Sequence record: MK524177.1
Direction: 5' to 3' (one strand)
DNA: 57,228 nucleotides
From: Escherichia phage PHB10
In this document: positions 33,721-40,687 of the stretch, piece after piece
How the letters are laid out: the number at the start of each line of letters is the position of its first letter
Numbering within the stretch: position 1 is the stretch's first letter
Notes under the pieces: model-generated
The model's database searches: none
What the model was told of the DNA's origin: nothing
What the model saw: only the letters and a program-made list of their open reading frames with translations
Translations under genes and position numbers: made by a program

Positions 33721-33948
33721 TTAAGGTTCCTGTTTAGGTAAACCGTCGGTGGGGTTTGGATAGAGATCGGGTCGTAACTCGTGGGGAGTTACTCCGGTCA
33801 TTTTAAAAATGGGAAAGATGTAGTTTGGAGGGACGATCCCATGGTCACGATTCTTCCAATGACTTACGGACATACTCGTAACACCTAGCGCGATGCTGAG
33901 CTTTCTGGCTGAGCCAGCAGCTTTAATTGCTTTATCGAGTGCGGACAT
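33721..33948 (-). CDS. Cro/YdaS-like HTH regulator
   Basis: 75 aa, HTH KLSIALGVTSMSVSHWK, ELRPD motif; divergent from the repressor; AGGAGAAG SD. Confidence 0.7.
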   Translation of the reverse strand: MSALDKAIKAAGSARKLSIALGVTSMSVSHWKNRDHGIVPPNYIFPIFKMTGVTPHELRPDLYPNPTDGLPKQEP

Positions 33949-33976: not shown

Positions 33977-34042
33977 GTAAACCATAGATTTACATTATAT
34001 GCAAACCATAACTTTATTGCGTGTATAAACCAAGTATTTACA
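33977..34042. promoter_or_regulatory. operator region: three AAACCA-N4-TTTA repeats and divergent promoters
   Basis: Repeats at 33978, 34003, 34027 (24-25 bp spacing); TACAAT -10 hexamer at 34039-34044 placed for a leaderless repressor transcript. Confidence 0.45.
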
Positions 34043-34050
34043 ATGGCATT

Positions 34051-34425
34051 ATGAGAAAAGAAGAACCCAACCTCCTATTGGTGGACCGCCTAACTGAGAT
34101 CACAGATCGTGGCGTTACCAAAGCAGACATGGCACGAATAGCTGGAGTCACCCCTCAGGCCGTAAACGGCTGGTTCAAAAAAGGCGTGATCAGTAAGAAA
34201 TCGGCACTGGCTATAGCCGATGCTGTAGGCATTTCAGTCGCCTGGCTACTTGGTGAGGATGTTGGAGAGAAGGACGGCCTTAAGCCGGACGAGCAGCGCT
34301 TACTAGAACTCTACCGCCAATTGCCAGAAGAAGAGCAGCAGAACATGCTTCGTATCTTTGCGCTTCGCTTGAAGGAGTTGGATGAGCTGTATGAGAAGTA
34401 CATGAAAGGGCGCATAAAAAATTAA
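34051..34425 (+). CDS. prophage repressor (XRE-type HTH, no peptidase domain), probably leaderless
   Basis: HTH TKADMARIAGVTPQAVNGWFKKG plus coiled-coil C-terminus; no SD before ATG 34051 and a -10 hexamer 7 nt upstream. Confidence 0.65.
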   Translation: MRKEEPNLLLVDRLTEITDRGVTKADMARIAGVTPQAVNGWFKKGVISKKSALAIADAVGISVAWLLGEDVGEKDGLKPDEQRLLELYRQLPEEEQQNMLRIFALRLKELDELYEKYMKGRIKN

Positions 34426-34512: not shown

Positions 34513-34833
34513 ATGGACGAAGAAAATAAAGATAATGCTGAAAACCTAGGCGAAAGCGGTATCACAAGAGCGCTTTCAATTCTTGGAGAAGAATTTGGTA
34601 ATTATTTTCTAGAATTGGAATCTAAGCACGGGGAGATGGTTTGTCCTTTATGCAGAGGTACCATGTGGGGTATCCCTCCAAGATTCGACTCTGCCGAACA
34701 CCCTGCTATCGTGACTCTCCCTTTACCTAACTCTGCCGGGCGTGGTATCTGGGCTTATCCTCTCATCTGCTCTGGATGCGGTTTCATTGCAACGTTTTCT
34801 GCATTTGAAGTTTCAAAGAAGATTCGGGGATAA
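34513..34833 (+). CDS. small zinc-ribbon protein (CPLC...CSGC), first gene of repressor-linked module
   Basis: 106 aa, four Cys in two CxxC pairs, acidic N-terminus; AT-rich; 87 nt downstream of the repressor. Confidence 0.5.
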   Translation: MDEENKDNAENLGESGITRALSILGEEFGNYFLELESKHGEMVCPLCRGTMWGIPPRFDSAEHPAIVTLPLPNSAGRGIWAYPLICSGCGFIATFSAFEVSKKIRG

Positions 34834-34839
34834 ATTCTC

Positions 34840-35217
34840 ATGGCAGCCGTGTGCTTAGACTCCAACTCGATAATGAGGCTAACGGTTAGCACTTCAGAGA
34901 TTTTTGAGGCATTGCCGACAATCGAAAATCGCATCGGGGACACGCCTTACACACCCGACGAAGCTACCGTTATGATCATTACAACTAATGTGTCTCGTTC
35001 AGAAAATTGTACTGGTTTGCTGATACTATCTGTAATATTAGTATGTTTAATTGGTGTTATAGTAAATGTATTAGGAGGTAAAGTAATGCACTACATCCCC
35101 TTGTACATCGCACTTGCACCTGTATTTTATTGGGTGCTTAAAATCGCTTACGCATTTTTTGTTGTTAAGTTTCATAAACTTCAAACTAGTTCTTCATTTT
35201 TCAAGCAGGAAGACTAA
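34840..35217 (+). CDS. small membrane protein (soluble N-terminal domain plus two TM helices), second gene of module
   Basis: 125 aa; 6-nt gap after the previous gene; hydrophobic segments LLILSVILVCLIGVIVNVLGG and IPLYIALAPVFYWVLKIAYAFFVV. Confidence 0.5.
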   Translation: MAAVCLDSNSIMRLTVSTSEIFEALPTIENRIGDTPYTPDEATVMIITTNVSRSENCTGLLILSVILVCLIGVIVNVLGGKVMHYIPLYIALAPVFYWVLKIAYAFFVVKFHKLQTSSSFFKQED

Positions 35218-35639
35218 TGCCTAACGATAATCTTAAAAACACAGCTAAAAATGGTCTTCCACTAGTCATAGCAAGCGTGTTGTGTGGATACGCAACGAAC
35301 GCAATTCCTGTTCTCTTCCCTGCAGGTGAAACAAGAGAATGGGCTTATCGCTCGATTCCTTTCTTGTCTATCATTATTTTATTCATTATCAAGACCTTGA
35401 AAGATTTTGGCGGTATGTCTTTTAGTAATCTTGTGTTCACAATCTGCGCGAGTTCAGAAAAAAAACGACTTCTAGCGATGATAAATGACAGCAATCTGAG
35501 CCAAGCGACAAGAGATGATGCTAAAAAGCGGTATGACGAAATTGGCCGCCAAGAACTTGAGCTTGGATCTCGGTTTCTGAAGTATGTTTCACAATGGTCG
35601 GTTATAAATAAATCCCCAACCCCCCCACCTACTGATTAA
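35217..35639 (+). CDS. small membrane protein (two TM helices plus charged C-terminal domain), third gene of module
   Basis: 140 aa; start overlaps the previous stop (TAATG); followed by a terminator. Confidence 0.5.
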   Translation: MPNDNLKNTAKNGLPLVIASVLCGYATNAIPVLFPAGETREWAYRSIPFLSIIILFIIKTLKDFGGMSFSNLVFTICASSEKKRLLAMINDSNLSQATRDDAKKRYDEIGRQELELGSRFLKYVSQWSVINKSPTPPPTD

Positions 35640-35651
35640 CTATTGTCTACA

Positions 35652-35677
35652 ACCCGGCCATCGCGTCGGGTTTTTTA
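35652..35677 (+). terminator. intrinsic terminator ending the repressor-module operon
   Basis: 7-bp stem (35652-58/35665-71) with 6-nt loop followed by T6. Confidence 0.6.
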
Positions 35678-36112
35678 TATCCCAATCAACTCGACACTCC
35701 TCTAAACTCCAGCCCCGTACTCATTATGCCCGAGCTTAGCATCATTTTTTTGCCTGTTATACCTCACCCTTCTTATAAAAATCCCCACATAAACCCCTGC
35801 TTTACAATTTTTGTAATCCTTTGATTGACACAGTTATAAACCAGTGATTTAATCGAGCTTACCAAGACGCACTACGAACCACCAAGGCAGGACGCCCACG
35901 AAGTAGCCGCCGACGGCATACGAATAGTCGGATGAGGTGGAGAGATTAACGCGCATCAGGTGTAAATGTTCCGCTGGCCGGCGATAAGGCAAACGAGGGT
36001 GAGAATGATTGATTTCGCACGCAAACCAGGACGGCAGCAGGCTGTAAAGCTGAACTTCCTCGAAGTGATTCTTCGCCGCTTATGCTATCTGCTGGCGCAA
36101 AAGGGGAATCCA

Positions 36113-36277
36113 GATGTGTAGCTCAACGAAATGCGGGTACTGCGGCAAGCCGGTTGAACCGAAGGAAGTAGTTAAATGTACCCTTCTCTATCGCAACGGC
36201 GCCCAGCTGGCGCGCAAAGAAAAAGAATACTGCTCTGAACGTTGTGCTTCGTACGACCAGATGGCCCACGAGGCATA
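36113..36277 (+). CDS. small zinc-ribbon protein upstream of the recE-like gene (YdaE-like position), putative
   Basis: 54 aa MCSSTKCGYCGKPVEP...YCSERCASYDQMAHEA with CxxC and CxxxC; SD AGGGG; shorter than the ORF-track cutoff. Confidence 0.4.
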
Positions 36278-36418
36278 ACGTAAAAGCCGCGCAAGGCGGC
36301 CCGTACGTCCGGTGCTCCCGACCAAAGTTACACCGGAAAACTACTTAAAAAACCAAAGTTCACCCAATGGGCGCTATCTCTGGCCCGGGGATCTTACATC
36401 CAAAAAAGAGGATCTCAC

Positions 36419-39400
36419 ATGGAATTTTTCTATGTAGTGAAGGCTACGCAGAAATCTGGCAAAGAAGACGCAGTGATTTGGTTCACTGCTAAATCAGAAG
36501 CCCGTGCCAACCTGCAGCTCGATGTCGAGCTGGAAGATGCAGGTATTGAAACCGGCCGCGGTAAGGATTACTCAAAACCGGTTCGCACCGATTTCCCTGT
36601 TTACAACGATCTGCCTGAAGAAAGCACCGTGGATTACATCTGGTGCAAACGCTACGAACTGCAGGACGATGGACGCACCTGGCTGCCAAAGGCTGGTGCT
36701 GAGTCGACTGGTGACATGGACAGCTCTGCCGCACCGGAGACGACCGTTAATGTCGAAACTACCGTCGAAAGTGTCCCGCTTGAAAACCGCACTCCAGCGG
36801 TCCGTTTTGCCGTCCATCTGACCAGCGACAAATACCAGTCACACATCACTAAAGAGCAGCAGCTGGCTGCCAGCGAAATGTCACTGGATGAAGGCAACAC
36901 CTATCTCCAGAATCTGCTACTGGCGAAGAACGACACCCCTGAAGTTGCCGAACTCAGCCTGAACGCTGAGTGGAAACTGGTACAGGTGATTAAACAGGTA
37001 TTCGCGCTAGATGAAGAGCACGAAGTAAAGCTACTTGCTGCTTTCATGGCCGACTGGTTGAGAGTTGATGCCGGCGCCCGTAATGAGGTAGTGAGAGAGT
37101 GGAAGAACGGAAAGCTTACTCTGCTCAAATCAGAAAGAACCAGCGACGCCGGGGTTGAAACTGATCAGCATATCGCTATTGATGACGGTATCCAGATCGG
37201 CGAGCACGACGATGAAAACACCCGTTATCCAGTGTGCAGAATGCCCTTCCGCAAGCAACTTCTTTCACAGTTCACCGCCGACGAACTGCGCCACCACTTA
37301 ACCCGCGAAGAATACGAAGGTATCAGCGCGCTGGAAATGGACACAGACAACAGCTATGTCCAGAACCTGCTTCTGGCGGCAGAAAACTGCGAAGAGGTTA
37401 AGGGTTACGATACCAAAGACCTGTGGCGCTACACCGACGCCATTCGCAAGGTGTTCAGCCAGGAGAAGCGTCACGAACTCGCTTTGGTTCTCCGATTCAC
37501 CAGAATCTGGGCTGCGACTGATTACATTGACCGCGGCACCCTGGTGCGCGAATGGGTTGAGGGTAATCGCATTTCTGAAGTAGGTTCTCCTGCACCTTTA
37601 GAACCAGAAAAACCAGAAACAACCGAATCCTATAAACGCGCTGTTGCCCAGAACATGGCGAACTTGAGCATTGAGATCGCGATTGCTCAGCTTTACCCAG
37701 ATGCAGTACCGGGGCAAATCAACCGTACGCAACTCCTGGCCGCCAAAGAACTCGCTGACAAAAAAGATGAGTCGCACGCCAAGGCGCTCAAGGTTCTTAG
37801 TAAAACCACCGACATCCTCGACTACGACGCCAACAGTATTTTTGGAGTTACCCGCGCTATTTCATGGTCTGGAGAAGAAAGCACAACCAAACTGCGTAGC
37901 CAGGTGCGTGAGTGGTTCACGGCGAACGGCATCTATGAAAGCGGTGAGCGCTCTAAAGGATATCCAGAATGGAACGAAGACTCCCGCGAGGTTCGTCATT
38001 CCACAGTGGAAGAACCAAGTACTCCAAGCCAGACAAAGGTCGCAAGCCTTGGAAGCGGCGTGTTCTCCATCGATGGCCTGATGGATGGAAATACCGAACC
38101 GGTCATCAATACCAACTCAAATGAAGTCGAAAAAACGGAAAAAACAGCGGAGACCACCAGCGATGTGCAGATGGAAACGGCTAAGCCAGAAAAAGACGAA
38201 GATGTTGGTTCGGTACCACCGAGCGAAAGCACTGATGCAGCTAATTCGCAGACAGATTCCGTAACGTTGGAAGAACAGCAAGCAGAACCGGTAATTGAGT
38301 ACCCAGCTTATTTCGAGCCTGGCCGCTACGAAGGCCTACCGAATGACGTTTATCACGCAGCAAACGGTATTAGCTCAACCCAGGTGAAAGATGCCCGGGT
38401 CAGCCTGATGTATTTCAACGCACGCCATGTGGCTAAAACTATCCCGCGCACAGCATCCAAAGTTCTGGACATGGGGAACCTGGTGCACGCCCTTGCACTG
38501 CAACCGGAAAACCTCGATGCAGAGTTCAGCGTGGAGCCTGAGATCCCGGACGGTGCTTTCACCACAACCGCAACTCTGCGCGAGTTCATCGACGAGTACA
38601 ACGCTAGCCTGCCGGCGCTGCTAAGCGCTGACGAGATTAAAGCGTTGCTTGAAGAACATAACGCATCCCTTACAGCTCCAGTGCCGCTTGGCGCGAGCCT
38701 GGAAGAAACGGCTCAAAGCTATATGGCTCTCCCTGCTGAGTACCAGCGTATTGAAGAAGGCCAGAAGCAAACGGCAACGGCAATGAAGGCGTGCATCAAA
38801 GAGTACAACGCTACCCTGCCCGTGCCGGTTAAAACCAGCGGCAGCCGTGATGCGTTATTTGAGCAATTAGCAATCATCAATCCAGACCTGGTGGCGCAAG
38901 AAGCGCAGAAACCGACACCGCTGAAAGTGTCAGGCAGCAAAGCAGACATGATCCAGGCTGTTAAGTCGGTTAAGCCCGATGCCATATTCGCCGACGAACT
39001 GCTGGATGCCTGGCGCGACAACCCTGGCGAAAAGATTCTGGTTACCCGCCAGCAGCTGGCCACAGCGCGGGCAATTCAGTCTGCACTCCTGGCGCACCCT
39101 ACAGCTGGCATGCTGCTGACACATCCAAGCCGCGCTGTTGAAGTGAGTTACTTCGGCTTTGACGACGAAACAGGTTTAGAAGTGCGTGTACGCCCTGATC
39201 TCGAGATTGAACTGGACGGCGTGCGAATTGGCGCCGACCTGAAAACCATCAGTATGTGGAATGTGAAGCAAGAAAGCCTTCGCGCCAGGCTGCACAGGGA
39301 AATCATAGACCGTGACTATCACCTCAGCGCGGCTATGTATTGCGAGACCGCGGCGCTGGACCAGTTCTTCTGGATTTTCGTCAACAAAGACGAGAACTAC

Positions 39401-39592
39401 CACTGGATCGCTATCATCGAGGCGTCAACCGAACTGCTGGAGCTGGGCATGCTCGAGTATCGCAAAACGATGCGCGCCATCGCCACAGGCTTCGATACTG
39501 GCGAATGGCCAGCGCCGATCACTACCGATTACACCGATGAACTGAACGACTTCGACCTGCGCCGCCTCGAAGCGCTGCGCGCTCAGGCTTAA
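36419..39592 (+). CDS. RecE-like exonuclease VIII (PD-(D/E)XK nuclease C-terminal domain with long acidic N-terminal region)
   Basis: 1057 aa; C-terminal VRPDLEI...ADLKT nuclease-like motifs; immediately followed by the annealing-protein gene. Confidence 0.7.
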   Translation: MEFFYVVKATQKSGKEDAVIWFTAKSEARANLQLDVELEDAGIETGRGKDYSKPVRTDFPVYNDLPEESTVDYIWCKRYELQDDGRTWLPKAGAESTGDMDSSAAPETTVNVETTVESVPLENRTPAVRFAVHLTSDKYQSHITKEQQLAASEMSLDEGNTYLQNLLLAKNDTPEVAELSLNAEWKLVQVIKQVFALDEEHEVKLLAAFMADWLRVDAGARNEVVREWKNGKLTLLKSERTSDAGVETDQHIAIDDGIQIGEHDDENTRYPVCRMPFRKQLLSQFTADELRHHLTREEYEGISALEMDTDNSYVQNLLLAAENCEEVKGYDTKDLWRYTDAIRKVFSQEKRHELALVLRFTRIWAATDYIDRGTLVREWVEGNRISEVGSPAPLEPEKPETTESYKRAVAQNMANLSIEIAIAQLYPDAVPGQINRTQLLAAKELADKKDESHAKALKVLSKTTDILDYDANSIFGVTRAISWSGEESTTKLRSQVREWFTANGIYESGERSKGYPEWNEDSREVRHSTVEEPSTPSQTKVASLGSGVFSIDGLMDGNTEPVINTNSNEVEKTEKTAETTSDVQMETAKPEKDEDVGSVPPSESTDAANSQTDSVTLEEQQAEPVIEYPAYFEPGRYEGLPNDVYHAANGISSTQVKDARVSLMYFNARHVAKTIPRTASKVLDMGNLVHALALQPENLDAEFSVEPEIPDGAFTTTATLREFIDEYNASLPALLSADEIKALLEEHNASLTAPVPLGASLEETAQSYMALPAEYQRIEEGQKQTATAMKACIKEYNATLPVPVKTSGSRDALFEQLAIINPDLVAQEAQKPTPLKVSGSKADMIQAVKSVKPDAIFADELLDAWRDNPGEKILVTRQQLATARAIQSALLAHPTAGMLLTHPSRAVEVSYFGFDDETGLEVRVRPDLEIELDGVRIGADLKTISMWNVKQESLRARLHREIIDRDYHLSAAMYCETAALDQFFWIFVNKDENYHWIAIIEASTELLELGMLEYRKTMRAIATGFDTGEWPAPITTDYTDELNDFDLRRLEALRAQA

Positions 39593-39601
39593 GGGGGATT
39601 T

Positions 39602-40687
39602 ATGCATAACACTAACGTTACCGTTGCTGACCAGAACACCGTTATTAACTCCAACGTGGCTTTGTTCGATTCCCAGTATCTGAACGCCATCAGCACGTTC
39701 GCGCAGATTATGGCCCAGGGCACCGCTACTGTTCCTAAGCACCTGCAGGGCAATCAGGCCGACTGCATGGCTGTAGCGATGCAAGCGGCACAGTGGCAGA
39801 TGAATCCCTTTGCCGTGGCGCAGAAGACGCACCTGATTAACGGTGTGCTCGGGTATGAAGCGCAGCTGGTTAATGCCGTCATTTCTCGAAGCGGCGTGCT
39901 GGCAAGTCGCTTTGAATATGAATGGTACGGGCCATGGGAAAAGGTTGTTGGAAAATTCCACATCCGTAAAGGCGACAAAGGCGAGTACCGCGTCCCGGGT
40001 TGGAACCTGGCTGACGAAGCCGGGATCGGCATCATTATCCGCGCAACGTTGAAAGGTGAAGATCAGCCGAGAGAACTTGATTTACTGCTGGCTCAGGCCC
40101 GTACTCGAAACTCTACCCTCTGGGCTGACGACCCTCGCCAGCAGCTGGCGTACCTGGCCGTCAAACGCTGGGCGAGACTGTTCTGCCCGGATGTGATTCT
40201 GGGCGTGTACACTCCTGATGAGCTCGATGATCGTCATGAAGAACGAGAGGTAAATCCCGCACCGGCGCAGCACGTTAGCCTTGCTGATATTTCAGGTGAC
40301 GATGTCACTACTACTCAACCGGCTCAGGAATCAGCTCAAAATATCGATGCACTTGCTGATGATTTCCGTGATCGCATCGAGGCGGCTCAGGATGTGGATA
40401 GTGCTAAAGCTCTGCGCGCAGATATTGAAACAGTCAAAGTAACGCTGGGTTCTGCCCTGTTCACTGAACTGAAGAACAAAGCTGTGAAGCGTTATTACCT
40501 GGTGGACGCACGCAACAAGGTTGAGGCCGCTATTAACTCCCTGCCACAGCCCGACGAGCCGAATGCCGCCGAACGGTTCGCGGAAGCCGAGCGCGTGCTG
40601 GCATCTTCAAAGCGTCACCTGGGCGACGAGCTGCACGATCAGTTCAGCATCACCCTAGCGGATATGAAACCGGAATACGTGGACTAA
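39602..40687 (+). CDS. ssDNA annealing protein (RecT/Bet-type partner of the exonuclease)
   Basis: 361 aa ORF 10 nt downstream of the RecE-like gene; family call from context. Confidence 0.6.
   Translation: MHNTNVTVADQNTVINSNVALFDSQYLNAISTFAQIMAQGTATVPKHLQGNQADCMAVAMQAAQWQMNPFAVAQKTHLINGVLGYEAQLVNAVISRSGVLASRFEYEWYGPWEKVVGKFHIRKGDKGEYRVPGWNLADEAGIGIIIRATLKGEDQPRELDLLLAQARTRNSTLWADDPRQQLAYLAVKRWARLFCPDVILGVYTPDELDDRHEEREVNPAPAQHVSLADISGDDVTTTQPAQESAQNIDALADDFRDRIEAAQDVDSAKALRADIETVKVTLGSALFTELKNKAVKRYYLVDARNKVEAAINSLPQPDEPNAAERFAEAERVLASSKRHLGDELHDQFSITLADMKPEYVD

What the first reader, a model, noticed from the sequence alone, without database searches (positions are those of the whole stretch)
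36005..36277. Two coupled micro-ORFs upstream of the RecE-like gene, including a 54-aa zinc-ribbon protein
A 54-aa Cys-rich protein (36113..36277, SD AGGGG) is preceded by a possible 38-aa ORF (36005..36120, SD GAGGGTGAGA) whose stop overlaps its start. Their position in the early-left operon, between the immunity region and the recombination genes, is where kil, anti-restriction and host-takeover genes occur in lambdoid phages. Both are below the size cutoff of the ORF track.
Basis: partly seen in the sequence, partly recalled or inferred. Interest (0 to 1): 0.3.

Follow-up and report, generated by a model that had tools for sequence, protein, structure and literature searches.

The report
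Coupled small-peptide and YdaE zinc-finger genes
The two tiny overlapping genes are real, conserved prophage genes (a 38-residue peptide and a 54-residue YdaE-family zinc-finger protein) that are fused into one protein in other phages, but both families are already catalogued and their function is still unknown.

Summary
Both micro-ORFs exist and are genuine genes. ORF1 is 36005..36121 (38 aa). ORF2 is 36114..36278 (54 aa). They share an 8-nt overlap (ATGTGTAG) and each has its own Shine-Dalgarno sequence.

ORF2 is a clear YdaE-family zinc-finger protein (NCBIfam NF041288, 91 bits against a cutoff of 35). ORF1 matches PHROG 22279. The same overlapping pair is already annotated in Gifsy-2 (STM1010.2n/1n) and recurs in at least 72 viral contigs. 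Both reading frames are under frame-specific purifying selection (pN/pS 0.14 and 0.27).

In other phages the two halves form one polypeptide (phrog_6751 and several independent fusions). In Rac and mEp237, YdaE is instead coupled to the FtsZ inhibitor Kil, and a few proteins fuse the two. The pair is therefore best read as a split two-part small protein. It is translated 1:1 from the repressor-controlled early-left transcript, just upstream of recE/recT.

The function is untested. A host-directed early function is inferred from position and partners only.

Two neighbouring non-coding elements are at least as interesting as the ORFs:
- a strongly covarying, uncatalogued RNA motif in the pL leader (35879..35941);
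- an IsrB-like antisense sRNA in the ultra-conserved ydaE-recE spacer.

The parts
35790..35851 (+). Two operator-like sites TAAACCnnnGnTTTA (35790-35804 and 35837-35851) bracketing and overlapping the pL promoter
   Evidence: The pattern TAAACCANNGATTTA with up to 2 mismatches gives 6 matches against 1.27 expected (0 of 100 shuffles reach 6). All fall at pL or in the cro-cI region, at 33978 and 34026.
35825..35853 (+). Putative early-left promoter pL: -35 TTGACA (35825-35830), 17-nt spacer, TG-extended -10 TTTAAT (35848-35853)
   Evidence: Read from the sequence. The hexamer positions are conserved in related phages. The consensus scanner did not call it because position 2 of the -10 is T. The transcription start is inferred, not shown.
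35879..35941 (+). Structured RNA motif in the pL leader: outer stem P1, hairpin P2 (GGC/GCC), invariant junction CACGAAGUAGC, hairpin P3 with the near-invariant loop GGCAUAYGAAU
   Evidence: The exact 22-nt core occurs in at least 120 viral contigs. 94.4% of cells pair against at most 44% when the partners are slid. 10 of 14 pairs show changes on both sides. Covariation is 0.61 against 0.17 shuffled, with 0 of 500 shuffles reaching it. The covariance model finds a single 92-bit copy in the window. There is no Rfam match.
35995..36004 (+). Shine-Dalgarno region of ORF1 (GAGGGTGAGA)
   Evidence: Sequence. Conserved with the 5' UTR in Gifsy-2 and in the E. coli relative.
36005..36121 (+). ORF1, 38 aa: conserved N-terminal motif D-x-A-R-x-P-x-R-x-Q-A, a predicted amphipathic helix, and the C-terminal tail LLAQKGNP
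   Evidence: phrog_22279 at 1e-24 over its full length. 71 protein clusters, mostly called at 38 aa. pN/pS 0.136. Annotated as STM1010.2n in Gifsy-2. Helix 18-32 in the AF2 model.
36102..36106 (+). Shine-Dalgarno of ORF2 (AGGGG), inside ORF1 codons K33-G34
   Evidence: Sequence. 99-100% conserved over 65 loci.
36114..36278 (+). ORF2 = ydaE homologue, 54 aa, a four-Cys zinc finger with the invariant C-terminal motif DQMAHE
   Evidence: NF041288 at 91.3 bits against a cutoff of 35. phrog_1520 at 1.8e-26. PF27493 on all homologues. PGAP names the E. coli copies 'YdaE family protein'. pN/pS 0.274.
36281..36365 (-). IsrB-like antisense small RNA gene with its own terminator hairpin, inside the 95-100% conserved ydaE-recE spacer (36279-36418)
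   Evidence: Rfam RF01386 at 26.7 bits, below the gathering score of 35. True IsrB (99 bits) sits at the same place and on the same strand in Gifsy-2 and SPN3UB. The core hairpin and terminator are shared. IsrB-1 and IsrB-2 were mapped experimentally between sbcA (recE) and STM1010/STM2631 (PMC2330248).
36419..40687 (+). recE-like exonuclease (36419-39592) and recT-like annealing protein (39602-40687), the downstream genes of the same operon
   Evidence: ORF list. Annotation of the 95.5%-identical E. coli prophage.

Best explanation
ORF1 and ORF2 are the first two genes of the repressor-controlled early-left (pL) transcript of an N-less lambdoid prophage. They sit directly upstream of recE and recT. 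Together they encode the two halves of a bipartite small protein.

The two halves:
- ORF1 supplies a short basic N-terminal motif, an amphipathic helix and a ...QKG(D/N)P tail.
- ORF2 (YdaE family) supplies a four-Cys TRASH/eL24-like zinc finger that ends in the invariant C-terminal DQMAHE helix.

How they are expressed: ORF2 is translated by coupling. Its SD lies inside ORF1 and its ATG overlaps the ORF1 stop. The two products are therefore made in about equal amounts on the same mRNA.

How they probably act: they most likely associate into the same unit that related phages make as one fused polypeptide.

What is shown: gene reality, family membership, coupling geometry, operon position, and the fusion/fission pattern.

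What is inferred:
- The two products bind each other.
- The YdaE finger is a reusable C-terminal module that works with interchangeable small N-terminal partners. These are ORF1-like peptides here, Kil/KilR in Rac and mEp237, and a roughly 140-aa domain elsewhere.
- The complex acts on a host target early after induction. My best guess is a cell-cycle or cell-shape target, as for Kil (about 0.25). The target could also be a nucleic acid or another protein.
For: Gene reality:
- Frame-specific purifying selection and unbroken frames in 63 distinct versions.
- The same 8-nt overlap in 72 loci and in Gifsy-2.
- 549 related stretches in IMG/VR.

Family membership: NF041288 at 91 bits against 35, PF27493, phrog_1520 and phrog_22279.

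The two halves form one unit:
- phrog_6751 (94 aa) matches both halves.
- Old, diverse natural fusions exist: P0110, P0115, P0117, P0126, P0129 and P0134, all with the ...QKGDPT(L/I) linker.
- Recent single-base re-fusions exist: P0003, P0104 and P0106.
- A distant lineage is split at the same linker: a 46-aa ORF ending ...LNQKGDPTI overlaps ydaE by 4 nt.

YdaE as a module:
- Kil is coupled to ydaE in Rac by a 1-nt overlap and is adjacent in mEp237.
- Kil-YdaE fusions exist: P0111 matches phrog_294 at 7e-31 and phrog_1520 at 1e-21. P0359 is another.
- About 80 representative proteins of roughly 190 aa carry the domain at the extreme C-terminus.

Operon:
- Promoter and operators.
- No + strand terminator between ORF2 and recE.
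- The same position, after the repressor and before the recombination genes, in distant relatives.

Hint of a costly activity in E. coli K-12:
- ydaE insertions were enriched under several chemical stresses (PMC5064937).
- A ydaE knockout was less susceptible to T6SS killing (PMC7012810).
Against: - No experiment on either protein exists in the searched literature.
- No translation data were available for either ORF.
- The AF2 model of the virtual fusion gives pTM 0.46 and a low-confidence linker, so it does not show that the ORF1 helix packs on the finger.
- The partnership is not obligatory. Citrobacter phage Chris1 has an ORF1 homologue but no ydaE. In Klebsiella phages a DUF1482 gene separates the two.
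- ORF1 shows no detectable homology to Kil, so the Kil analogy rests on position only.
- The conserved K-G codons of ORF1 double as the ORF2 Shine-Dalgarno, so part of the tail conservation could be at the RNA level.
Confidence: 0.75

Rival explanations
1. ORF1 is only a regulatory upstream ORF. Its translation opens or delivers ribosomes to the ydaE start, and its peptide has no function of its own.
For: The ORF2 SD and ATG lie inside ORF1, and the stop/start overlap is the classical geometry of coupling. The most conserved ORF1 codons, AAG GGG, are the SD of ORF2.
Against: - pN/pS is 0.136 over the whole peptide, lower than for ydaE itself.
- Nine residues, spread over both ends of the peptide, are invariant across very divergent homologues.
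- The peptide is kept as the N-terminal domain of fused proteins, where no coupling is needed.
- It occurs without ydaE in Chris1.
Confidence: 0.07
2. The pair is a single gene broken by a frameshift. This would be either a pseudogene or a sequencing error. Alternatively, the fused protein is still made by programmed +1 frameshifting.
For: - Fused single-ORF versions exist and differ from the split form by one base in the GGGGAA run (P0003, P0104, P0106).
- PGAP marks the ORF1 homologue of E. coli 210205630 as an incomplete pseudogene.
- The ORF2 frame is open from 36069, 15 codons before its ATG.
Against: - The identical split recurs in 72 loci and in Gifsy-1, Gifsy-2 and SPN3UB, with both halves under purifying selection.
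- ORF2 has its own well-spaced SD and ATG.
- A distant lineage is also split, at the same linker but with a different overlap.
- No known +1 shift site (for example CUU UGA or CCC UGA) precedes the UAG. The only slippery run, CAA AAG, would give a -1 shift into the wrong frame (reading).
- The PGAP flag comes from alignment to over-extended 73-90-aa calls whose N-terminal parts are not conserved.
Confidence: 0.05
3. ORF1 is a functional analogue of Kil, a small inhibitor of cell division or elongation. YdaE would be its co-factor or modulator.
For: - ORF1 occupies exactly the place of kil/kilR relative to ydaE and recE.
- Kil and ORF1-like peptides are both found fused to YdaE.
- The C-terminal tail of KilR is essential for toxicity (PMC12482147). 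In the fusions this is the segment joined to YdaE.
- Both tails share an L-x-x-(K/G)-G-(D/N)-P flavour.
Against: - No homology: the hhalign probability is 0.5% and there is no Kil family hit.
- KilR is predicted to be a beta-rich domain, whereas ORF1 is a single helix.
- SEN34 carries Kil without YdaE.
- No toxicity data exist for ORF1.
Confidence: 0.2
4. YdaE is an accessory of the RecE/RecT recombination module, for example an anti-RecBCD (Gam-like) or DNA-end-binding factor. Alternatively it is a YacG-like inhibitor of DNA gyrase.
For: - ydaE lies directly upstream of recE, or within one gene of it, in every annotated example examined.
- It lies upstream of RecE-like/RecT or RecT/YqaJ genes in two distant loci.
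- It sits where gam sits in SEN34.
Against: - Gifsy-1-type RecE/RecT modules are classed as lacking anti-RecBCD. They are enriched in Chi sites, as expected if RecBCD stays active (PMC12315714).
- Many of the DNA-based examples were found with a query that included the recE start, which biases the association.
- L216 has the fused form without RecE or RecT nearby.
Confidence: 0.12

Closest known systems
YdaE of the E. coli K-12 Rac prophage (b4526, 56 aa; NCBIfam NF041288, Pfam PF27493, phrog_1520)
   Same: Same family by HMM. Same four Cys and the same C-terminal YCSxxCAxxDQMAHE. Same place in the early-left operon just upstream of recE. Both are translationally coupled to a small upstream ORF.
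   Different: Only 41% identical. The Rac knuckle is C-x4-C (CAYHLC) rather than C-x2-C. The upstream partner in Rac is KilR, not an ORF1-type peptide. Rac also has racC between ydaE and recE.
STM1010.2n / STM1010.1n of Salmonella prophage Gifsy-2 (and the Gifsy-1 and SPN3UB copies)
   Same: The same two genes (76% identity for ORF1, 67% for ORF2) with the same 8-nt overlap, the same 5' UTR next to ORF1, and a downstream recE.
   Different: Gifsy-2 has an extra 78-aa gene (STM1010) before recE. It carries canonical IsrB rather than the divergent version, and it lacks the structured leader motif. SPN3UB has the motif.
phrog_6751-type fused proteins (about 90-100 aa; e.g. P0110, P0115, P0129)
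   Same: They contain both halves in the same order, joined by the ...QKGDPT(L/I)... linker, and sit at the same operon position (L216).
   Different: They are a single polypeptide. The N-terminal half is only 32-53% identical to ORF1.
Kil/KilR cell-division inhibitors (Pfam PF27398, phrog_294)
   Same: They occupy the same slot directly upstream of ydaE, are also coupled or fused to YdaE, and are small early-left host-directed proteins.
   Different: No sequence relationship to ORF1 (hhalign probability 0.5%). They have a different predicted fold. The FtsZ/MreB activity is shown only for KilR.
TRASH / FCS / eL24 / MYND / YacG treble-clef zinc fingers
   Same: The predicted fold of the YdaE part is a zinc knuckle, a beta hairpin, then CSxxC and a helix. 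The FCS-like motif YCSxRC is shared.

Membership tests
YdaE family (NCBIfam NF041288 / Pfam PF27493 / phrog_1520) | Whole-protein HMM score above the curated cutoff | tested here: met
   91.3 bits against a cutoff of 35, E 2.9e-26, covering profile positions 2-50 of 50. phrog_1520 at 1.8e-26.
YdaE family (NCBIfam NF041288 / Pfam PF27493 / phrog_1520) | Four conserved Cys (C-x2/4-C ... C-x3-C) and the C-terminal DQMAHE at the very end of the protein | tested here: met
   C7, C10, C40, C44, D48, Q49, M50, A51, H52 and E53 are invariant in 13 family members including Rac YdaE. The motif is kept in distant members.
YdaE family (NCBIfam NF041288 / Pfam PF27493 / phrog_1520) | Binds zinc | not testable with these tools
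   There is only the EcoCyc label 'zinc-binding protein' for the K-12 member, as quoted in PMC7012810, and the predicted finger fold.
ORF1-type peptide (phrog_22279) | Full-length HMM match and the conserved residues D3, P8, Q12, A13, L30, Q32, K33, G34, P36 | tested here: met
   1e-24 over profile positions 1-38 of 38. All nine invariant positions are present.
phrog_6751 two-domain protein | Both halves in one polypeptide | tested here: not met
   Both halves match the profile: ORF1 at 0.026 on positions 8-43, ORF2 at 2.6e-13 on positions 46-93. Here, however, they are two ORFs in different frames.
Kil / KilR (PF27398, phrog_294) | Sequence homology of ORF1 to the Kil domain | tested here: not met
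   No Kil hit in Pfam, PHROGs or NCBIfam. hhalign of the ORF1 profile against the Kil profile gives probability 0.5% with 7 aligned columns.
Kil / KilR (PF27398, phrog_294) | Inhibits FtsZ / cell division on expression | not testable with these tools
   Requires expression and microscopy.
YacG DNA gyrase inhibitor (PF03884) | Pfam score above the gathering threshold | tested here: not met
TRASH/eL24-like treble-clef zinc finger (fold level) | Significant structural superposition | tested here: inconclusive
Anti-phage defence / PADLOC families | Any HMM match | tested here: not met
   No families at E up to 1 for either protein.
IsrB sRNA (Rfam RF01386), for the neighbouring minus-strand element | Covariance-model score at or above the gathering score | tested here: not met
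   26.7 bits against 35. Position, strand, core hairpin and terminator do agree with true IsrB.
HK022 put antiterminator RNA, for the leader motif | Sequence or structure similarity to putL, and a second copy downstream of pR | tested here: not met
   No similarity to the HK022 pL region. The window holds only one copy of the motif. Promoter-proximal placement in N-less phages is shared.

The most novel reading that the evidence does not exclude
The YdaE zinc finger, with its invariant C-terminal DQMAHE tail, is a general docking or activating module for small phage effectors. In this reading it is combined, by fusion or by translational coupling, with interchangeable N-terminal heads: Kil, ORF1-type peptides, and an uncharacterised domain of about 140 aa. 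ORF1 would then be a new, non-homologous inhibitor of a host cell-cycle or morphogenesis protein that needs YdaE to act. It would follow that the well-studied KilR toxin of Rac has an overlooked partner.
Probability: 0.2. Interest if true: 0.55.

Novelty: new member of a known kind. Interest (0 to 1): 0.3.

Why it matters
For annotation: both ORFs fall below usual size cutoffs, and PGAP flags the ORF1 homologue as a pseudogene. The evidence here says it is a real 38-aa gene.

For biology: ydaE is a widespread prophage gene with no assigned function. It sits next to kilR, whose toxicity underlies Rho- and NusG-dependent silencing phenotypes in E. coli. The fusion/fission pattern predicts that YdaE works physically with Kil or with ORF1-type peptides. 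A few expression and pull-down experiments could test this.

The neighbouring leader RNA motif may be the more valuable lead. It could be how these N-less lambdoid phages control early-left transcription.

Tried and rejected
1. Kil homology of ORF1: rejected. There are no family hits, and hhalign probability is 0.5%.

2. The 51-aa start of ORF1 and the 73-90-aa Salmonella calls: rejected. The upstream extensions are not conserved as protein.

3. Programmed frameshift: no plausible +1 site (reading).

4. YdaE as a YacG-like protein or a solved-structure relative: only sub-threshold matches.

5. YdaE as a Gam analogue: weakened by the classification of Gifsy-1-type modules as lacking anti-RecBCD and being Chi-rich.

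6. Defence or anti-defence libraries: nothing.

7. Function from the roughly 190-aa relatives:
   - The model is excellent (pLDDT 96.8).
   - Pfam finds nothing.
   - Their contigs are short strings of unknown small genes.

8. BFVD fold search: only uncharacterised proteins, none at E of 0.001 or better. afdb50 was not available.

9. Leader motif as an HK022 put homologue: no similarity and no second copy.

10. Literature searches for YdaE function, Gifsy small proteins, STM1010 and KilS gave only screen phenotypes or nothing.
Full report
**Observation**

The sequence at 35700-36600 and the mechanical ORF list confirm two overlapping small ORFs on the + strand.
- ORF1 runs from the ATG at 36005 to the TAG at 36119-36121 and encodes 38 aa: MIDFARKPGRQQAVKLNFLEVILRRLCYLLAQKGNPDV.
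- ORF2 runs from the ATG at 36114 to the TAA at 36276-36278 and encodes 54 aa: MCSSTKCGYCGKPVEPKEVVKCTLLYRNGAQLARKEKEYCSERCASYDQMAHEA.

The overlap is 8 nt (ATGTGTAG), and ORF2 is in the +1 frame.

The two quoted Shine-Dalgarno sequences are present. GAGGGTGAGA abuts the ORF1 ATG. AGGGG lies 7 nt before the ORF2 ATG, inside ORF1 codons K33-G34.

**Are they genes?**

ORF2 scores 91.3 bits against NCBIfam NF041288 'YdaE family protein' (cutoff 35) and 1.8e-26 against phrog_1520. All 35 database homologues carry Pfam PF27493. PGAP names the E. coli copies 'YdaE family protein'.

ORF1 matches the 38-residue phrog_22279 over its full length at 1e-24. It has 71 homologous protein clusters, most of them called at exactly 38 aa. 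Longer calls (51-90 aa) extend into upstream sequence that differs between lineages, so conservation starts at M-x-D-F/Y-A-R.

Gifsy-2 (NC_010393) already annotates both genes, STM1010.2n (38 aa) and STM1010.1n (52 aa), with the same 8-nt overlap.

A scan of IMG/VR found 549 related stretches. Of the 80 fetched, 72 (together with the window and the reference phages) show the identical overlap.

On 63 distinct 274-nt versions:
- Both frames are unbroken in all versions.
- The alternative + frames carry stops in 61-63 of 63.
- Third-codon positions vary most.
- pN/pS is 0.136 for ORF1 and 0.274 for ORF2, against 0.69-3.9 for the other + frames.
- The minus-strand frames are either closed in every version or unconstrained.

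The loci were chosen by protein similarity, which lowers pN somewhat. The frame specificity is not affected by that bias.

**Operon context**

- The immunity region lies upstream: a cro-like gene at 33721-33948 (-) and a cI-like HTH gene at 34021-34425 (+).
- Three unassigned ORFs follow (34513-35639), then a + strand terminator at 35651-35672.
- Next comes a promoter-like TTGACA (35825) - 17 nt - TG-n-TTTAAT (35848-53). The strict scanner missed it because the -10 has T at position 2.
- Operator-like sites TAAACCAnnGATTTA occur at 35790 and 35837 and again at 33978 and 34026, in the cro-cI region. That is 6 matches against 1.27 expected, and none of 100 shuffles reach 6. This is therefore a repressor-controlled pL.
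- No N-like gene lies between pL and recE.
- No + strand terminator separates ORF2 from recE (36419-39592) and recT (39602-40687).

**What the pair is**

The most informative result is the fusion/fission pattern.
- phrog_6751, a 94-aa family, matches ORF1 on its positions 8-43 and ORF2 on positions 46-93.
- An exhaustive profile search with a YdaE alignment (177 representative clusters at E up to 0.001) returned many fused proteins of about 90-100 aa. Their N-terminal part is ORF1-like (D..P.R.QA ... L.QKGDPT) and their C-terminal part is YdaE. Examples are P0110, P0115, P0117, P0126, P0129 and P0134.
- Three further fusions (P0003, P0104, P0106) are recent single-base re-fusions of the split form, with junctions ...AQKG-IQ-MCSS and ...AQKGD-R-MLKQ.
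- A distant chromosomal prophage (L214) is also split. A 46-aa ORF ending ...LLAILNQKGDPTI overlaps a 52-aa ydaE by 4 nt, right after the repressor gene. A RecE-like DUF3799 protein and RecT follow.
- The fused form P0110 sits at the same operon position.

The two products therefore behave as two halves of one functional unit that has been split and joined repeatedly at one linker.

Nine ORF1 positions are invariant across split and fused forms: D3, P8, Q12, A13, L30, Q32, K33, G34 and P36.

**YdaE as a module**

- In Rac, kilR overlaps ydaE by one base.
- In mEp237 a 68-aa Kil is followed 12 nt later by ydaE. Several E. coli phages list 'YdaE | host-killing protein' together.
- Kil-YdaE fusion proteins exist. 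P0111 matches phrog_294 'Kil' at 7e-31 and phrog_1520 at 1e-21. P0132 and P0359 are further examples.
- About 80 representative proteins of 180-215 aa carry the YdaE domain at their extreme C-terminus, always ending DQMAHEG.

The partnership with ORF1 is frequent but not obligatory. Citrobacter phage Chris1 has an ORF1 homologue and no ydaE. Klebsiella phages insert a DUF1482 gene between the two.

**Structure**

I modelled an AF2 'virtual fusion' (ORF1 directly followed by ORF2) with a 57-row alignment of natural fusions, concatenated pairs and stand-alone YdaE proteins.
- Mean pLDDT is 75.2 and pTM is 0.46.
- Residues 1-17 are disordered, and a helix spans 18-32 (the ORF1 part).
- The YdaE part then shows a zinc knuckle, a beta hairpin and a C-terminal helix at pLDDT 78-91.

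YdaE is thus a small treble-clef (TRASH/FCS-like) finger. The low pTM means the model does not tell whether the ORF1 helix packs on it.

**Function**

Nothing experimental is known for ORF1 or for any YdaE beyond screens.
- EcoCyc labels K-12 YdaE a zinc-binding protein (quoted in PMC7012810).
- ydaE transposon insertions were enriched under six chemical stresses (PMC5064937).
- A ydaE knockout was less susceptible to T6SS killing, with partial complementation (PMC7012810).
- The Rac early-left genes, including kilR and ydaE, are co-induced 40-70 fold when RacR repression is perturbed (PMC11014345).
- KilR inhibits FtsZ and MreB and needs its C-terminal tail. Its authors note that it is unknown whether it has a partner (PMC12482147).

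Tests of specific ideas:
- ORF1 is not homologous to Kil (hhalign probability 0.5%).
- Neither protein hits PADLOC.
- A Gam-like anti-RecBCD role for YdaE is disfavoured. Gifsy-1-type RecE/RecT modules are classed as lacking anti-RecBCD and are Chi-rich (PMC12315714).

I therefore commit only to this: a translationally coupled, two-part small protein made early from pL. Most likely it acts on a host component. A Kil-like effect on division or shape is the single most likely specific outcome (about 0.2-0.25).

**Rivals**

- A purely regulatory uORF is contradicted by the strong peptide-level constraint and by the peptide's survival in fusions.
- A broken gene or sequencing error is contradicted by the recurrence of the split with both halves constrained, and by ORF2's own SD and ATG.
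- Programmed +1 frameshifting lacks any recognisable shift site. The only slippery run (CAA AAG) would shift -1 into a closed frame.

**Neighbouring elements noticed**

1. Leader RNA motif. The pL leader contains a roughly 63-nt structured RNA motif (35879-35941).
   - Its 22-nt core GGCAGGACGCCCACGAAGTAGC is exact in at least 120 viral contigs.
   - On 36 diverse versions the outer stem and the second hairpin are 94% paired. Ten of 14 pairs show compensatory changes. Covariation is 0.61 against 0.17, with 0 of 500 shuffles reaching it. Slid controls pair at 44% or less.
   - It always sits about 20 nt after the pL -10, right after the repressor gene. The downstream genes differ between ST64B, SEN34, 118970_sal3, Chris1 and mEp237.
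   - It has no Rfam match and no similarity to HK022 putL. A covariance model finds only this one copy in the window.
   - A promoter-proximal cis-acting RNA in N-less lambdoid phages invites a put-like antitermination role, but that is untested.

2. IsrB-like antisense RNA. The ydaE-recE spacer (36279-36418) is 95-100% identical over 65 distinct loci, more conserved than either ORF.
   - Its minus strand matches Rfam isrB at 26.7 bits, below the gathering score of 35.
   - Canonical IsrB (99 bits) lies at the same place and on the same strand in Gifsy-2 and SPN3UB.
   - The core hairpin UCCGGU...CUUUGGUCGG...ACCGGA and a terminator with compensatory changes are shared.
   - IsrB-1 and IsrB-2 were mapped experimentally between sbcA (recE) and STM1010/STM2631, antisense to both (PMC2330248).
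   - The terminator tail of this RNA overlaps the ydaE stop codon.

**Verdict**

This is a new member of already catalogued families (the YdaE family, phrog_22279, and the Gifsy-2 STM1010.1n/2n pair), so novelty is low and interest modest. The added value is threefold:
- evidence that the 38-aa ORF is a real gene;
- the pair is a split two-domain protein;
- YdaE is a module shared with Kil.

Two neighbouring RNA elements deserve their own follow-up.

Noticed in passing
window 35879-35941 (+): A structured RNA motif of about 63 nt lies in the pL leader: outer stem, GGC/GCC hairpin, invariant junction CACGAAGUAGC, and a second hairpin with loop GGCAUAYGAAU. Covariation is strong, with 10 of 14 pairs showing compensatory changes and 0 of 500 shuffles reaching the score. 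It occurs in at least 120 viral contigs, always promoter-proximal after the repressor gene and ahead of different genes. It is not in Rfam, is not similar to HK022 put, and occurs once in the window. It may be a put-like element of N-less lambdoid phages.
   Followed up: partly
window 36279-36418; minus strand 36281-36365: The ydaE-recE spacer is 95-100% identical over 65 distinct loci, more conserved than the flanking genes. It holds a divergent IsrB-like antisense sRNA with its own terminator: Rfam 26.7 bits against a gathering score of 35, syntenic with true IsrB of Gifsy-1, Gifsy-2 and SPN3UB. Its 3' end overlaps the ydaE stop codon, and its presumed promoter overlaps the recE ribosome-binding site.
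   Followed up: partly
window 33978-34040 and 35790-35851: Operator-like sites TAAACCAnnGATTTA cluster at the cro-cI intergenic region and around pL. There are 6 matches against 1.27 expected. They define the immunity specificity of this prophage.
   Followed up: partly
window 34513-35672 (+): Three ORFs lie between cI and pL, the position of rex/sieB in lambda. They are 106 aa (with CxxC...CxxC), 125 aa and 140 aa (both hydrophobic). None matches Pfam, NCBIfam, PHROGs or PADLOC. A strong + strand terminator closes the cluster at 35651-35672. This is a candidate lysogen-expressed moron or exclusion cluster.
   Followed up: partly
proteins P0125, P0128, P0130 and about 80 others (not in the window); loci L089, L090: A family of proteins of about 190 aa ends in a YdaE domain. 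The AF2 model is very confident (pLDDT 96.8, pTM 0.83), but the N-terminal part of about 135 residues has no PDB or Pfam counterpart. The contigs are strings of small unknown genes.
   Followed up: partly
proteins P0111, P0132, P0359; L005 2339-2730 (Rac): Natural Kil-YdaE fusion proteins exist, and kilR overlaps ydaE by 1 nt in Rac. This suggests the KilR toxin has an unstudied partner. None of the KilR papers found by the searches and held in the library links the two.
   Followed up: partly
L002 3143-3298 (E. coli 210205630, 95.5% identical to the window): PGAP annotates the ORF1 homologue as an 'incomplete, missing N-terminus' pseudogene. This appears to result from alignment to over-extended 73-90-aa calls of the same locus in Salmonella and Enterobacter.
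   Followed up: yes
L093 1558-1773 (Citrobacter phage Chris1); L217 646-1275 (Klebsiella phage ST846-OXA48phi9.2): ORF1 homologues occur without ydaE in Chris1, followed there by an Rrf2/IscR-like gene. In Klebsiella phages a DUF1482 gene separates ORF1 from ydaE, and all genes are joined by 4-nt overlaps.
   Followed up: partly
L005 2906-3003 (Rac, K-12): RefSeq lists a small RNA KilS in the leader upstream of kilR. It shows no obvious similarity to the leader motif of the window, and no paper on it was found in the library.
   Followed up: partly
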